From the UHGV virus genome UHGV-0116392: a stretch of DNA of 16,211 bases; one strand, 5' to 3'. This document shows, in pieces, positions 9,126-15,292 of the stretch. Origin of the DNA: a virus. Made by a program: the position numbers and the translations under genes. Each line of letters starts with the position of its first letter. The first letter of the stretch is position 1. The notes beneath the pieces are model-generated. The model had not been told where the DNA came from. It made no database searches and worked only from the letters and a program-made list of their open reading frames with translations.

Positions 9126-10406
9126 TTAATCTCCGAAAAAGATGACTGGTGCTTCCACCAGCGATTTAATACCGTACTCGCGCACAACCTTCCGGCGCAG
9201 GCGCACCGTCATATCGTAGCGGCGGACCCATTGCTGATTAATAAATTCAGGGAAGGGGGTCAGACCTGTGTAATCGCCAAGAGACAGCCCCAGCGCATTC
9301 AGTGCTGCATTGTTCTGCGGTACAGATATACCGTCACGAAACCGGGACGCATACACCATCCCCGCCGGACCATAAAACGAAGCCATACACTCAATCGTTT
9401 CATGCCGCCAGAGCTTAGAGCCATCATCGGTCTGTCTGGTGAATGCCGGACTGTCATCACCTGACCATCCGATACCCAGTTTGATATGCGCATCAACGGC
9501 AGCCTGTACCCATTCGGATGGAATCAGGACGCCTTCCGCTGATGCGCTGTAGTTCAGATCAAGTTCCTGTGCCACCACCACCGGATTATCGATTTTCTCG
9601 CATTCCCTGCGATACCACTCTTCATCCTTGCGAGGATCATCCCGCCAGTGGAATGTGAATACCGGTATCTTCCCGCCATGACGCTTCTGAGCGAACGGGT
9701 TAGCCATGCCGTTAACTGAACTCAGGTCGATACGGCAACGCGTCGTTTGTGACAACGCCGCATCAATCAGCAGAGGACGCTGAAGGAATGCAGCCTCATC
9801 AACCAGATAAAGCGTGGTACGGTCACCACGACCAATATTATCGCCAGCCTCGCCTTTGATAACGGCACCAGTTTCAGGAAACTCAACACGCATATATGGC
9901 GCGTGCTTCTTCTCACTCCACGAACCGCGAAACTCTACAGGTAGCGTTTCCACGAACTTGCGCGCCTTCCAGAACAATGCTTTCGGGTCACCAGTGCTGT
10001 CGACGTATTCCTCTTTACGGGAGCCAAAACCGATAACCATTTCTTTGTTGAAGAGACAAAGCGAGCATGCCAGTCCGATCGCGGTCCAACTGAGCCCCAT
10101 TTCACGGGATTTTTCGGTAATACCATTCTCCCGATTGCTCCAGCGTTCCATAATCCAGTGGATCCACTCCTCCTGCTTAGGGAAGAGTAAAAACGGAATG
10201 GTCACCGGCAGGCCATAATCAATATTACGCGGGTCCGTTGTCATGCCCCAGTCGATGATGAACTGAGCCGGATTGGTTCGGTAAAACTGTTTTAGTGCAG
10301 GCAATATTTCAGGATTCTGGCGAATGCGCTGTAGGCGTTCCATCCGCCATTCAAAAACCATCTGGTAATCAGGATGTTTAAAATCGAAGGGGAATGGTAA
10401 CGGCAT
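9126..10406 (-). CDS. Terminase large subunit, 426 aa
   Basis: Deviant P-loop KSREMGLS (lambda gpA-like KSxxxGxS pattern) around residues 95-105 and Walker [10 protein letters not shown] around residue 200, followed by a C-terminal domain of nuclease-domain size. Lies 2 bp downstream of terS. Confidence 0.8.
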
Positions 10407-10408
10407 AC

Positions 10409-10960
10409 TTAGCCCATCATTTTTCTATACGCTTCTGCAACCTGCTCCGGCGTTAAGTTGGTAATTTCTGTTCTGACTGGTCCTCCGTCAGCACCAGTCA
10501 CTTCATTTTTGACATTGTCTTTAAACGCCTGAACAGAAACATGACGCCCGAGCAACTCAAGGTTTTTAACCTTATCAGGCCATTTGATTTTCTTCAGAAG
10601 TGCGGCGCTATCTGCGGATGCCATCTCCACGACATCCATTCCTGATAACGTTGTGCGCCATACCTTAGGCCAGTCTTTAATGGGTTTTAGCTCACCGTTT
10701 TGCAGGAGAATGTCAAGCACATCCATCTGGTCGATTTCAATAAGGCGATTAAGTACATATTCTGCATTAATACCAACAAGATCATTGCGTTGCGCTTTCA
10801 GTTCGGCGATTCTTAACTTGATGTCAGGTTTTGACAGGTTTTCGGATGCGGTACGGTTGGCTGTTTTTGCGCTGTACCCCGCCCGAATAGCCGCTTGCGT
10901 GGCGTTTAAATCGATGAGGTACTCGCGACAGAACATCTCTTGCTTGTCTGTGAGTGCCAT
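10409..10960 (-). CDS. Terminase small subunit (Terminase_2/P27-type), 183 aa
   Basis: N-terminus [30 protein letters not shown] is the characteristic HTH start of this family. Immediately upstream of terL. Confidence 0.85.
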
Positions 10961-10980
10961 TTTTTCTCAAAGGTGAATTT

Positions 10981-11412
10981 ATGAGCTCATTAACGTTTAT
11001 CGGATTGTCACAGTTACTTTCTAGGAAAGGTGAGTTATTACAGCAAAATACGAATGATTTATTAGAACGTGTTAACACCGCATGGAATAACAAACGAGAC
11101 CTTAATAAGCAAATTTCCATAGAGCTAAATGATGGAGAGCTTGAGGTTTCAATTCCACAGCTACGCTTTAAGTGTTTTACAGAAAGTAAGCTTTCACTTC
11201 ACGAAGGCTCATTAATTGGGGTTATTACTTTTTACACATCGCGAGATGGAAAAAAACAGGAGTTTCATAAAATTTTTCTTGATTGGAACAATTGCATGCA
11301 TTTTGGGGCGCTTGACTCAACAGCTCCAATAGACATCGACTATACCGAAGATGTTGAGTATCTCTTTATGAACGCTCTAATCGATTCTGCTTATCGAAAT
11401 AATTTAATCTAA
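10981..11412 (+). CDS. Hypothetical protein, ~143 aa; AT-rich orphan gene divergent from terS
   Basis: The only convincing plus-strand gene. ATG at 10981 is preceded by AAGGTGA; the track's start at 10954 is an upstream GTG. GC is visibly much lower than the rest of the window. No family recognised. Confidence 0.6.
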   Translation: MSSLTFIGLSQLLSRKGELLQQNTNDLLERVNTAWNNKRDLNKQISIELNDGELEVSIPQLRFKCFTESKLSLHEGSLIGVITFYTSRDGKKQEFHKIFLDWNNCMHFGALDSTAPIDIDYTEDVEYLFMNALIDSAYRNNLI

Positions 11413-11759
11413 TTGATGTTGGTGGTGAACTTTTGCCACCCAGTTAATCACTCTTAGCAGGATATAAGCCATTGTCGAGACCACTCATTGAATGGTCTCT
11501 GCAATAACCGATGTCTTTCCATCAGTCCGCCACCACAAAGAATCTTTTTTGCCATAAGGCAGGAGGTTCATCTTTCAGTGGCTGCCAGTGTTACTTCCCC
11601 ACTTTCTGGCTTGGGTTGTTTCGCTGTACTGCCGTAACTGGTGGTGCACAGATTTAGTTAAATCTGTTCTCGCCTGAACTATCTTTTACATACCCGGATT
11701 GTGGGGATGTAAATCACGGTTTCATTATCAAGCCCACCCGTAGATGGGCTTTGGAATGG

Positions 11760-12278
11760 TCACTTTGGCAGTCCGGGGATCGATATTTGCGCCTGCTGCT
11801 CAAGCCTTTCGATTCTTGCTATGAGTTGAGGTTTTTTGATCCTGCCCCAGCGGTTCAGCAAGCGTCCTGACATACTGGCAACATCCTTTTCCTTCATGAA
11901 CTCCAGCATTAACTCGTTGTGCTCTCTTTGGTATGAGTGAGCCATCTCCATCAGTCTGTCACGCATCCAATTAAATGCTTTGATAAACGCCTCTTTGATG
12001 GCGGCAGCTTTTTTGCCGGTAAACGACATGATGATGTACATCGCACCGTCTTTGGAAATTTCATATTCAACATACTGATTACCCTTGTGTTCATAGGTAA
12101 CCCGCGAAAAGTTGCTGGTTAGAAATTCATCCGAACAGTCTAGCTTTTCGATTTTCTGAATGATGTGGTGATGCTGCTTGTCGAAGTAAGCTGCTACCTT
12201 GCGGGAGGTTGTGATCACGCGATCACCAGAAACAACCACCATGTCCCGGAAATCGAGATTAGCCAATTGATGATTCAT
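11760..12278 (-). CDS. rha: Rha-family phage regulatory protein, ~172 aa
   Basis: N-terminal region MNHQLANLDFRDMVVVSGDRVITTSRKVAAYFDKQHHHIIQKI matches the Rha family pattern. Its position between lysis cassette and terS is as in P22. The track starts at a GTG at 12314; ATG at 12278 is preferred. Confidence 0.75.
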   Translation of the reverse strand: MNHQLANLDFRDMVVVSGDRVITTSRKVAAYFDKQHHHIIQKIEKLDCSDEFLTSNFSRVTYEHKGNQYVEYEISKDGAMYIIMSFTGKKAAAIKEAFIKAFNWMRDRLMEMAHSYQREHNELMLEFMKEKDVASMSGRLLNRWGRIKKPQLIARIERLEQQAQISIPGLPK

Positions 12279-12389
12279 AGCGTCTTTACCTTTTAGAAAG
12301 TGAGCCTGTCTCACAGAAAAGCCGCCCCGAGATGGTCGCCACCATATACGGCAGTTCTCAGGCTCAACTTTCTGAAAGGCTCGGGTGAT

Positions 12390-12418
12390 GTAATATGCGC
12401 GTGAGATGCGCTGTGAAA
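12390..12418 (-). promoter_or_regulatory. Candidate sigma70 promoter for rha
   Basis: Minus-strand TTCACA (-35, 5/6 consensus), a 16-17 nt spacer, then TATTAC (-10), located between the post-Rz terminator and rha. Confidence 0.3.
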
Positions 12419-14597: not shown

Positions 14598-14626
14598 AAT
14601 TTACCCAACTTTATTCAAAAAGTCAA
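14598..14626 (-). promoter_or_regulatory. Late promoter pR' (Q-dependent antitermination/qut region)
   Basis: Minus strand TTGACT (-35, plus 14621-14626), 17-nt spacer ttttgaataaagttggg, then TAAATT (-10, plus 14598-14603). This is near-identical to the lambda pR' sequence as I recall it and lies directly downstream of Q. Confidence 0.85.
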
Positions 14627-14668: not shown

Positions 14669-15292
14669 CTAACGTGTGACCGCATTCAAAATGTTGTCTG
14701 CGATTGACTCTTCTTTGTGGCATTGCACCACCAGAGCGTCATACAGCGGCTTAACAGTGCGTGACCAGGTGGGTTGAGTAAGGTTTGGGATTAGCATCGT
14801 TACAGCGCGATATGCGGCGCTTGCTGGCATTCTTGAATAGCCGACACCTTTGCATCTTCCGCACTCTTTCTCAACAACTCTCCCCCACTGCTCCGTTTTG
14901 GCTATATCAACCGCACGGCCTGTACCGTGGCAATCTCTGCATCTTGCGCCCGGCGTCGCGGCACTACGGCAATAATCCGCATAAGCGAATGTTGCGAGCA
15001 CTTGCAGTACCTTTGCCTTAGTATTTCCTTCAAGCTTTGCCACACCACGGTATTTCCCCGATACCTTGTGTGCAAATTGCATCAGATAGTTGATAGCCTT
15101 TTGTTTGTCGTTCTGGCTGAGTTCGTGCTTACCACAGAATGCAGCCATTCCGAATCCGGCTTGTGATTGCGCCATCCCCATAGCAGCCATCACATCAGTA
15201 CCGGAAAGAGAGTCAGAAGCCGTGGCCCGTGGTGAGTCACTCATCATCGGGCTTTTTGGCGAATGAAATTTAGCTACGCTTTCGAGTCTCAT
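14669..15292 (-). CDS. Q: Late antiterminator Q, 207 aa
   Basis: [44 protein letters not shown] matches lambda Q. ATGA overlap with ninI. Confidence 0.95.

What the first reader, a model, noticed from the sequence alone, without database searches (positions are those of the whole stretch)
10954..11412. AT-rich orphan gene divergent from terS, starting 21 bp from its start codon
This is the only plus-strand gene in a 16-kb minus-strand operon, and its GC content is far below the surrounding sequence. It has a good Shine-Dalgarno (AAGGTGA), and its promoter must lie inside the 5' end of terS. That is the classic signature of a horizontally acquired moron, possibly expressed from the prophage. 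No recognisable domain.
Basis: seen in the sequence. Interest (0 to 1): 0.6.

Follow-up and report, generated by a model that had tools for sequence, protein, structure and literature searches.

The report
Prophage accessory gene beside small terminase
This is a real, selected but uncharacterised 143-residue prophage accessory gene that sits in the same swap-in slot as the known phage P22 gene pid; it is probably transcribed from a weak promoter hidden inside the neighbouring packaging gene, which makes it an ordinary kind of element carrying a new, function-unknown protein.

Summary
A 143-aa gene (ATG 10981 to stop 11412, + strand) starts 20 nt from the start codon of a minus-strand Terminase_2 terS. 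It is the only + strand gene in the window, and at 35.9% GC (window 49.5%) it is the most AT-rich stretch. It is a real gene: dN/dS is 0.07-0.18, every homologue is 143-147 aa, and the AlphaFold model has pLDDT 91.

The moron reading is supported and can be made specific. The cassette (10961-11462) occupies the phage P22 pid moron slot. The left flank is the terS 5' end; P22 carries a decayed copy of it that holds the experimentally mapped pid promoter and 174-nt leader. The right flank is the conserved stretch next to rha. By homology, the promoter here is TTGCGT (10785-10790) / GATTCT (10808-10813), with a start near 10820.

Five unrelated cargoes use the same slot. The family has stayed head-to-head with terS, 20-21 nt apart, down to 28% identity. 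The protein's function is unknown; I infer a small binding modulator. Verdict: a new member of a known kind.

The parts
10981..11412 (+). Cargo gene 'orfX': 143 aa plus stop. Soluble, pI 5.0. Predicted layout: helix 6-36, six beta strands, helix 125-139.
   Evidence: Translation. RefSeq WP_000097127.1 in relatives. dN/dS 0.07-0.18. AF2 pLDDT 91.4, pTM 0.86. No family hit.
10970..10976 (+). Shine-Dalgarno AAGGTGA, 4 nt before the ATG.
   Evidence: Sequence. AAGGAGG or GGAG sits at the same place in homologues.
10961..10980 (.). 20-nt spacer between the two divergent start codons. It carries both ribosome-binding sites back to back.
   Evidence: The spacer is 20-21 nt in every locus of the 143-aa clade.
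10871..10960 (.). Ultraconserved 90-nt block. It is terS codons 1-30 on the minus strand and the 3' part of the predicted orfX mRNA leader on the + strand.
   Evidence: The block stays 87-97% identical where terS nt 91-270 fall to 41-72%. Third-codon-position identity is 25-26/30 here against 7-11/30 in codons 121-150. It is kept at 91% in the P22 terS fossil and 82% in the L011 fossil.
10785..10813 (+). Predicted weak promoter, homologous to P22 Ppid: -35 TTGCGT (10785-10790), 17-nt spacer, -10 GATTCT (10808-10813). The predicted start is near 10820, giving a leader of about 161 nt.
   Evidence: Column-by-column alignment with P22 (TTGCTT-17-AATCCT). The P22 -10 box and start site were mapped by mutation and dRNA-seq (PMC8835761). 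Here this is inferred by homology only.
10831..10857 (+). Alternative or second promoter candidate: perfect -35 TTGACA, 15-nt spacer, -10 TACGGT.
   Evidence: PWM score in the 99.98th percentile of the window. The -35 recurs in P22, L011, L019 and L032, but it is also imposed by the terS motif LSKPD. Unverified.
11421..11440 (+). Hairpin 9 nt after the stop codon (8-bp stem, no U-tract). A weak counterpart of the terminators that follow other cargoes.
   Evidence: z-score -0.26 in the window. Homologous or analogous hairpins are stronger in L019, L002, L032 and L027, and P22 pid has a canonical terminator.
10961..11462 (+). The exchangeable cassette: spacer, orfX and 3' hairpin. 36% GC.
   Evidence: Homology with alternative-cargo loci and with P22 stops at 10960-10968 on the left and resumes at 11457-11463 on the right. 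GC.
11463..11760 (.). Right flank of the slot: a conserved non-coding stretch between the cassette and the rha stop codon.
   Evidence: 93-98% identical in more than 160 P22-like phage records. No ORF of 50 aa or more. No Rfam hit.
10409..10960 (-). terS, small terminase (Terminase_2), 183 aa. It is the left flank of the slot and the host of the cargo promoter.
   Evidence: PF03592 E 7e-40. phrog_51.
11760..12314 (-). rha-family regulator gene, the late-operon gene upstream of the slot.
   Evidence: PF09669 and PF10549.

Best explanation
The ORF is a functional protein-coding moron. It is one of several unrelated cargo genes that can occupy a fixed slot between the lysis/rha module and the small-terminase gene of lambdoid and P22-like prophages, read against the late operon. 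This is the slot known from phage P22 as the pid locus.

Shown here:
- The gene is under purifying selection.
- It is the most AT-rich stretch of the window.
- Its two flanks are homologous to the flanks of P22 pid and of four other cargoes.
- The left flank is the 5' end of terS.

Inferred by homology to the mapped P22 promoter: transcription starts at a weak sigma-70 promoter embedded in terS codons about 49-59 (-35 at 10785-10790, -10 at 10808-10813, start near 10820). The mRNA then has a leader of about 160 nt that is antisense to the terS ribosome-binding site and its first 47 codons. It runs through orfX and ends near the hairpin at 11421-11440.

Inferred from the orientation and from pid: expression is low and constitutive in the lysogen, rises with phage genome copy number, and is opposed by head-on late transcription during lytic growth.

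Inferred from the protein: it is a small, soluble, mildly acidic alpha/beta sandwich whose conserved positions are almost all hydrophobic core. It therefore most likely acts by binding a host or phage protein, not by catalysis. It would then be a host-modulating or phage-interference factor in the manner of Pid. Its target is unknown.
For: Real gene:
- dN/dS 0.07-0.18.
- All 25 aligned family members are 143-147 aa.
- AF2 pLDDT 91.4, with all five models at 89 or above.
- The ORF is intact in 7 E. coli genomes and 9 IMG/VR contigs.

Slot identity:
- Window 10710-10964 matches P22 just upstream of pid: 73.7% overall, and 92.6% over the 81-nt match that ends one base short of the terS start codon.
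- Window 11463-11635 matches P22 next to rha at 93.7%.
- P22 pid is antisense to the late operon and was described as a moron whose site holds other inserts in related phages (PMC3573128).
- Relative to HK620, the P22 insertion is 631 bp: terS fossil plus pid plus terminator.

Other cargoes on the same terS start 19-26 nt from its ATG. All are AT-rich, 37-42% GC.

Promoter:
- The P22 -10 AATCCT and the start site 174 nt upstream of pid were mapped by up-mutations and dRNA-seq.
- They align to window GATTCT 10808-10813 and about 10820.
- The TTGC of the -35 and the A, T, C, T of the -10 are invariant in all six aligned loci, including two where terS is a pseudogene.

Protein:
- No TM segment or signal sequence; pI 4.9-5.8.
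- Positions conserved at 80% or more are mostly hydrophobic, plus T5, P59, C65, T86, D118 and E126.
Against: - No transcript, start-site or protein data exist for this gene.
- The strict consensus scan finds no promoter at 9/12 or better in 10400-12400. The homologous promoter scores only about the 98th percentile in my PWM scan.
- In P22, a fragment ending 244 nt upstream of pid was inactive even though it contains the -35 and -10 boxes. The promoter therefore needs further upstream sequence whose counterpart here is untested.
- The invariant promoter bases are also dictated by the terS motifs QRN and RIAEL. Their conservation in intact terS genes is therefore not independent evidence.
- The 3' hairpin is weak and lacks a U-tract.
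- P22 lysogens show almost no pid expression, so expression from the prophage is not guaranteed.
Confidence: 0.7

Rival explanations
1. orfX is a dedicated partner of the small terminase. It would regulate terS expression or pac recognition, or bind TerS, rather than being a free-standing accessory gene.
For: - In all 26 loci of the 143-aa clade, the gene lies head-to-head with a Terminase_2 terS start 20-21 nt away, even at 28-38% protein identity.
- The first 30 TerS residues are nearly invariant across these loci.
- The predicted leader is antisense to the terS translation-initiation region.
Against: - The same terS works with five unrelated cargoes in the slot.
- 195 of the 202 E. coli genomes that carry the terS block lack orfX.
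- orfX alleles are shuffled relative to the terS body: Spearman 0.11 over 91 pairs. For example, L027 and L028 have orfX at 85% identity and terS body at 27%.
- Distant family members occur without an adjacent terS: L008 has a Terminase_4 phage, and in L006 the family member is the second gene in the slot.
- orfX relatives persist beside decayed terS in L011, and the window's own prophage has lost its head genes and part of terL.
Confidence: 0.1
2. orfX is specifically an anti-phage defence or superinfection-exclusion protein. It would be expressed from the prophage to block competing phages.
For: - It occupies a prophage accessory slot and runs antisense to the late genes, like other lysogen-expressed exclusion genes.
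- A 24%-identical relative lies beside an rnlA-rnlB-like toxin-antitoxin pair and a RES/HEPN gene in L011.
- The surface evolves fast over a conserved core.
Against: - No PADLOC hit for the protein, for four divergent relatives, or for neighbouring + strand genes.
- It is a single small protein with no nuclease, NTPase, membrane or sensor domain.
- The one characterised cargo of this slot, Pid, modulates host metabolism rather than defending.
- The L011 neighbourhood is a single case in a rearranged prophage remnant.
Confidence: 0.2
3. The functional product is the RNA: an antisense transcript that silences terS or the late operon. The ORF would be incidental.
For: - The predicted leader is fully complementary to the terS ribosome-binding site and first 47 codons.
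- The 90-nt block is conserved at synonymous sites, and it is also conserved in two loci where terS is a pseudogene.
- In P22, the 5' end of a second pid mRNA species maps inside this block (my inference from the band sizes).
Against: - Strong purifying selection acts on the protein (dN/dS 0.07-0.18).
- Length is conserved and the fold is confidently predicted.
- The block is retained in P22, where there is no Terminase_2 terS to silence.
- The leader shows no exceptional RNA structure (z -1.0 and -0.65).
- At most this is an additional role of the leader, not a replacement for the protein.
Confidence: 0.05

Closest known systems
Phage P22 / BTP1 pid moron locus (Cenens 2013, PMC3573128; Wolput 2022, PMC8835761)
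   Same: The slot and both flanks are the same: the terS-5'-derived sequence upstream and the conserved stretch next to rha downstream. The orientation is the same, antisense to the late operon. The composition is AT-rich. The cargo is a small ORFan. The promoter position and long leader are homologous. A hairpin follows the ORF.
   Different: The proteins are unrelated: Pid is 86 aa and gives no BLASTP alignment at E<=100. In P22 the terS piece is a dead fossil (stops, a frameshift, ATG changed to GTG) and pid starts 38 nt beyond it (pid ATG at L042 1019). Here terS is intact and the cargo starts 20 nt from its ATG. The pid terminator is canonical; this one is weak. Pid's effect, dgo derepression, cannot be assumed for orfX.
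Lambda bor and other morons of lambdoid phages, such as HK97 gp15 (from my own knowledge of Juhala et al. 2000 and Cumby et al. 2012)
   Same: It is a small AT-rich gene inserted between late-region genes. For bor, it also lies just after the lysis genes, on the strand opposite the late operon, and is expressed from the prophage.
   Different: bor encodes a lipoprotein and gp15 a membrane protein. orfX has no signal sequence or TM segment. There is no sequence relationship. The promoter here lies inside an essential neighbouring gene instead of being carried within the insert.
Frataxin / CyaY fold
Type III secretion chaperones (CesT/SycE-like), YbjN/DUF2170-like proteins
   Different: The scores are lower than for frataxin. 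There is no Pfam hit and no secretion-system context. The middle helix of the chaperone fold is absent from the predicted topology.
Burkholderia phage Mana uncharacterised protein A0A873WDE3
   Same: It is the only significant viral structural match: Foldseek E 1.5e-5, TM 0.75/0.71 over the full length, 151 aa.
   Different: Identity is 10%. Its function is unknown, and its genomic context was not examined.

Membership tests
Moron (Juhala et al. 2000 criteria, as applied to pid by Cenens 2013) | Lies between sequences that are adjacent, or hold a different insert, in related phages | tested here: met
   The same terS start and the same rha-side flank enclose YodC+DUF6953, a 78-aa ORF, a 90-aa ORF or orfX. 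The same terS start also faces a 182-aa ORF. In P22 the same two flanks enclose pid. HK620 has 27 bp where P22 has the 631-bp insertion.
Moron (Juhala et al. 2000 criteria, as applied to pid by Cenens 2013) | Nucleotide composition distinct from the surrounding genome | tested here: met
   35.9% GC against 49.5% for the window, and the lowest of all 432-nt windows. Homologues are 35-43% GC in loci of 47-54%.
Moron (Juhala et al. 2000 criteria, as applied to pid by Cenens 2013) | Own promoter, independent of the surrounding operon | tested here: inconclusive
   The opposite strand and the 20-nt spacer force a promoter inside terS. The homologue of the mapped Ppid is present, but it is weak and no transcript data exist for this gene.
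Moron (Juhala et al. 2000 criteria, as applied to pid by Cenens 2013) | Own factor-independent terminator | tested here: inconclusive
   There is a hairpin at 11421-11440, but it has no U-tract and a z-score of -0.26. Clear terminators follow the gene in L002 and follow P22 pid.
P22 pid locus (the slot) | Upstream flank homologous to the pid promoter/leader region, and downstream flank homologous to the orf25/rha side | tested here: met
   Window 10710-10964 matches L042 735-985. Window 11463-11635 matches L042 1371-1545. The 81-nt core is 92.6% identical.
Pid protein family | Sequence similarity to the 86-aa Pid protein | tested here: not met
   BLASTP gives no alignment at E<=100. orfX is therefore not a pid gene, only a tenant of the same slot.
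Frataxin/CyaY (PF01491) | Significant profile match | tested here: not met
   No Pfam hit for any of the 25 members at E<=5. A PDB sequence-profile search gives only spurious LRR hits.
Frataxin/CyaY (PF01491) | Acidic ridge on helix 1 and strand 1 used for iron and IscS binding | tested here: not met
   Helix 1 (residues 6-36) carries only E18, D26 and E29, along with K16, R15, R30, K38 and R39. These residues are not conserved across the family.
Known anti-phage defence systems (PADLOC-DB 2.0) | Match to any defence-protein model | tested here: not met
   No hits at E<=1 for orfX. No hits at E<=0.1 for P0017, P0020, P0023 or P0025.
Terminase_2 small terminase (the neighbouring gene) | PF03592 profile match over the full domain | tested here: met
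   E 7.1e-40, residues 3-154, against profile positions 1-139 of 141.

The most novel reading that the evidence does not exclude
The first roughly 180 nt of this terS family may double as a portable expression-and-exchange platform for accessory genes. On this reading:
- A weak promoter written into terS codons 49-59, plus an ultraconserved 90-nt leader (terS codons 1-30), drive whatever gene lands opposite terS.
- The block serves as the homologous-recombination anchor that swaps cargoes between phages.
- Because the leader is antisense to the terS ribosome-binding site, cargo transcription is coupled to silencing of terminase in lysogens or carrier cells.
- The platform is also what moved into P22. 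That would explain the 'exceptionally long 5' UTR' of pid as a terS fossil, a connection that neither of the two pid papers I read makes.
Probability: 0.25. Interest if true: 0.6.

Novelty: new member of a known kind. Interest (0 to 1): 0.4.

Why it matters
On its own, the gene is one more function-unknown prophage accessory gene, and a rare one. It is in 7 of 5,426 complete E. coli genomes and in none of 50,697 deposited phage genomes.

Its value lies in context. It shows that the P22 pid locus is one instance of a general cargo slot facing a Terminase_2 terS. That terS block is present in 202 of 5,426 E. coli genomes, including BL21 and EPEC E2348/69, and at least six unrelated cargoes use the slot.

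It also gives an evolutionary origin for the unusually long pid leader and its eroded promoter: they are terS coding sequence read backwards. And it points to a 90-nt stretch of terS that is conserved at synonymous sites and survives when terS itself decays.

Together this makes the slot a defined place to look for lysogen- or carrier-state-expressed host modulators. It also makes a concrete question testable: does cargo transcription regulate terminase?

Tried and rejected
- Sequence families. Pfam, PHROGs, NCBIfam and PADLOC gave nothing on the protein and on all 25 family members. A PDB sequence-profile search gave only spurious LRR-kinase hits to a leucine-rich stretch.
- Frataxin and T3SS-chaperone membership: rejected (see the membership tests).
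- Loci scans. The GTDB representative-genome scan found no relative. The alignment with distant members was too divergent for a loci scan. P0019 gave no viral locus.
- Deposited phages. tblastn against 50,697 phage records found no match.
- RNA. There is no Rfam family or tRNA anywhere in the window. Folding the predicted leader on either strand shows no exceptional stability.
- Promoter next to the gene. No convincing -10/-35 pair lies in the 110 nt upstream of the ATG. This agrees with the finding in P22 that the promoter lies far upstream.
- Paralogy or relatedness of the other slot cargoes to orfX: rejected for the BL21 182-aa protein (hhalign probability 0.1%) and for Pid.
- orfX-TerS co-evolution: rejected (Spearman 0.11).
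- pac-site reading of the conserved block: considered, by analogy with SPP1-type Terminase_2 phages (my own knowledge). It is neither testable here nor able to explain why the block is retained in the P22 and L011 fossils.
- Literature. The LF82/Gally paper had nothing on this slot.
Full report
**1. What is there**

The window is the late region of a lambdoid E. coli prophage, read on the minus strand. In order it holds NinG, Q antiterminator, holin, endolysin, Rz, rha, small terminase and tail genes.

A + strand ORF runs from 10954 to 11412. Its true start is ATG 10981, for three reasons:
- It follows AAGGTGA at 10970-10976.
- Every homologue begins MS.LTF at this codon.
- RefSeq annotates the identical 143-aa protein, WP_000097127.1, in relatives.

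The terS start codon is at 10958-10960 on the other strand, so 20 nt separate the two starts. terS is a Terminase_2 protein (PF03592, E 7e-40).

The ORF has 35.9% GC and 33% GC3, against 49.5% for the window. The most AT-rich of all 15,780 overlapping 432-nt windows starts at 10989. In the closest complete relative, PGAP annotates 35 features and only this gene is on the + strand.

**2. It is a real gene with a small family**

A word-indexed search of 5.8 billion proteins found 15 clusters at 68-99% identity. All are 143 aa, from E. coli, Citrobacter, Enterobacter and Klebsiella. An exhaustive HMMER scan of 1.84 billion representatives found 11 proteins at E<=0.001: six full-length clusters at 22-35% identity and 143-147 aa, besides the 84%-identical P0006, two short fragments and two others. 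A profile search raised the total to 25.

Nei-Gojobori dN/dS is 0.07-0.09 against the 87% homologues and 0.18 between the two 68-69% homologues. Synonymous sites are saturated between the window and those two. Every homologue is AT-rich, at 35-43% GC in loci of 47-54%. Low GC is thus a long-standing property of the family and not a sign of very recent arrival.

The gene is rare. It is in 7 of 5,426 complete E. coli genomes, all at 99.8% identity or above. It is in 9 IMG/VR contigs. It is in none of 50,697 deposited phage genomes by tblastn.

**3. The protein**

No Pfam, PHROG, NCBIfam or PADLOC model matches it or any family member.

With a 16-sequence alignment, AlphaFold gave pLDDT 78. With 25 diverse sequences it gave pLDDT 91.4 and pTM 0.86, and all five models scored 89 or above. 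The layout is helix 6-36, six antiparallel strands, then helix 125-139.

The protein is soluble and mildly acidic (pI 5.0; family range 4.9-5.8). The positions conserved at 80% or more are nearly all hydrophobic core residues. I therefore treat it as a non-enzymatic binding module. It is not a frataxin: there is no profile match and no acidic ridge.

**4. The surroundings identify the slot**

Other E. coli prophages have the same terS and the same rha-side flank but different + strand genes between them. These are YodC/DUF2158 plus DUF6953, a 78-aa ORF and a 90-aa ORF. Each starts 24-26 nt from the terS ATG. BL21 and EPEC E2348/69 carry a 182-aa ORF 19 nt from it, and that ORF is unrelated to orfX.

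Homology between these loci and the window stops at 10960-10968 and resumes at 11457-11463. The exchangeable cassette is therefore 10961-11462.

A 100-nt probe from the terS 5' end unexpectedly hit phage P22 and BTP1 (81 nt at 92.6%), in a region that P22 leaves unannotated and BTP1 labels pid. P22 packages with an unrelated small terminase, gene 3. What it carries here is a fossil of a Terminase_2 terS. Codons 1-89 are recognisable, with in-frame stops, a frameshift, and ATG changed to GTG.

pid lies immediately beyond the fossil on the opposite strand, and the window's right flank matches P22 up to rha at 93.7%. Relative to HK620, P22 has a 631-bp insertion made up of fossil, pid and terminator.

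pid is a published moron. [quoted passage not shown] It derepresses the host dgo operon in phage-carrier cells (PMC3573128). orfX is thus a different tenant of the pid slot. Pid and orfX share no similarity.

**5. How it is probably expressed**

Wolput et al. (PMC8835761) mapped the pid promoter by up-mutations in an eroded -10 box (AATCCT, 181-186 nt upstream of the ATG). Using dRNA-seq from BTP1 lysogens, they placed the start 174 nt upstream (P22 nt 40,880). They also showed a secondary, shorter mRNA species that depends on the leader, and a terminator needed for transcript stability.

In my alignment the P22 promoter TTGCTT-17-AATCCT lines up with window TTGCGT (10785-10790)-17-GATTCT (10808-10813). 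The start aligns to about 10820. The predicted leader is about 161 nt and is antisense to the terS ribosome-binding site and first 47 codons.

This is inference by homology, and several points weaken it:
- The site is weak. It has no 9/12 consensus match and scores about the 98th percentile in a PWM scan.
- Its invariant bases are also imposed by the terS motifs QRN and RIAEL.
- In P22, a fragment reaching only 244 nt upstream was inactive, so further upstream sequence matters.
- A second candidate exists here, TTGACA-15-TACGGT at 10831-10857 (99.98th percentile). Its P22 counterpart showed no activity.

After the stop codon there is an 8-bp hairpin (11421-11440) with no U-tract. Relatives and P22 pid have clearer terminators at the same place.

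On expression state: pid is transcribed at TPM>100 in BTP1 lysogens (PMC7067206) but only leakily in P22 lysogens. Prophage expression of orfX is therefore plausible but unproven.

**6. An unusually conserved piece of terS**

All 26 loci of the 143-aa clade keep a 20-21-nt head-to-head spacing with a Terminase_2 terS start. In 25 of them terS is full length. In L026 only its first 25 codons are recognisable. This holds even where orfX identity is 28-38%.

In the 19 loci measured, the first 90 nt of terS stay 87-97% identical to the window, while nt 91-270 fall to 41-72%. Third-codon-position identity is 25-26/30 in codons 1-30. It is only 7-11/30 in codons 121-150, even though the protein there is 77-90% conserved.

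The block also survives where terS is dead:
- In P22 it is 91% identical, against 59-68% for the rest of the fossil.
- In L011 a 24%-identical orfX relative sits next to a terS pseudogene with no start codon and several stops.

orfX alleles and terS bodies are freely re-assorted (Spearman 0.11). The unit that travels is therefore cargo plus block, not cargo plus terminase.

The block is the 3' part of the cargo leader. From the band sizes, I infer that the 5' end of the secondary pid mRNA falls inside it. It shows no exceptional RNA structure.

What the block does is unresolved. It could be a leader or processing signal, an antisense partner of the terS initiation region, a recombination anchor, or a pac-related site. 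Neither pid paper mentions terminase, so the terS origin of the pid promoter and leader appears not to have been noted in them.

**7. Function and rivals**

The best-supported account is a moron in the pid-type slot, weakly and constitutively transcribed from a terS-embedded promoter, that encodes a small protein-binding modulator of a host or phage target. My confidence is about 0.85 for the anatomy, 0.6 for the promoter assignment and 0.4 for the binding-protein mechanism.

- A dedicated terminase partner is unlikely. Five other cargoes serve the same terS. Alleles are shuffled. Distant members occur away from terS (L006, L008). The gene persists beside dead terS genes and in this window's defective prophage.
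- A specific anti-phage role is possible but unsupported. There are no PADLOC hits, and the only defence-gene neighbourhood is L011.
- An RNA-only role is contradicted by the purifying selection on the protein.

**8. Verdict**

The element is a new, uncharacterised cargo family in a known kind of locus: a new member of a known kind. Interest is moderate. The gene itself is an ordinary function-unknown moron. The terS-embedded promoter, the ultraconserved leader block and the link to P22 pid add a testable evolutionary and regulatory angle.

Noticed in passing
window 9126-10406 (junction at 9471-9477): The 426-aa 'terL' ORF is an in-frame fusion of the N-terminal part of TerL with the C-terminal part of a neck-terminator protein (PF23961). 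Relative to the E. coli F1267 prophage, 7.2 kb are missing (L043 9641-16861: the rest of terL, portal, head morphogenesis, scaffold and capsid genes), with a 7-nt overlap at the junction. The window's prophage therefore cannot make heads, yet terS and orfX are intact.
   Followed up: yes
window 11459-11760: A stretch of about 300 nt between the cargo slot and the rha stop codon is 93-98% identical in more than 160 P22-like phage records. It has no ORF of 50 aa or more and no Rfam hit. It contains a 7-bp inverted repeat, GAGACCA...TGGTCTC, near 11470-11492. Its function is unknown.
   Followed up: partly
L042 (P22 NC_002371.2, record positions about 40744-41006) and L041 (BTP1): P22 and BTP1 carry a decayed Terminase_2 terS 5' end (codons 1-89, with stops, a frameshift and ATG changed to GTG), although they package with an unrelated terS (gene 3). 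The experimentally mapped pid promoter and its 174-nt leader lie inside this fossil. The two pid papers I read do not mention terminase.
   Followed up: yes
L044 2620-3168 (E. coli BL21) and L045 2120-2668 (EPEC E2348/69): The same slot, 19 nt from the same terS start, holds an unrelated 182-aa + strand hypothetical protein (WP_000762846.1) in these two well-studied strains. It has no Pfam hit. The terS block occurs in 202 of 5,426 E. coli genomes.
   Followed up: partly
L011 1681-6444: A 24%-identical orfX relative lies beside a terS pseudogene. Directly next to these are an rnlA-like toxin gene (357 aa), an uncalled 118-aa ORF in the rnlB position, and a RES/HEPN gene, all within a rearranged prophage remnant.
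   Followed up: partly
window 14598-14626, minus strand: The best sigma-70-like site in the whole window (-35 TTGACT, 17-nt spacer, -10 TAAATT) lies just downstream of the Q antiterminator gene (14669-15292). It is probably the late promoter pR'. It is followed by about 900 nt with no long ORF before the holin gene.
   Followed up: no
L026 4905-4979: In one IMG/VR contig the orfX-family gene faces a terS of which only the first 25 codons are recognisable by tblastn. This may be a third case where the 5' block is kept while the rest of terS is replaced or lost.
   Followed up: no
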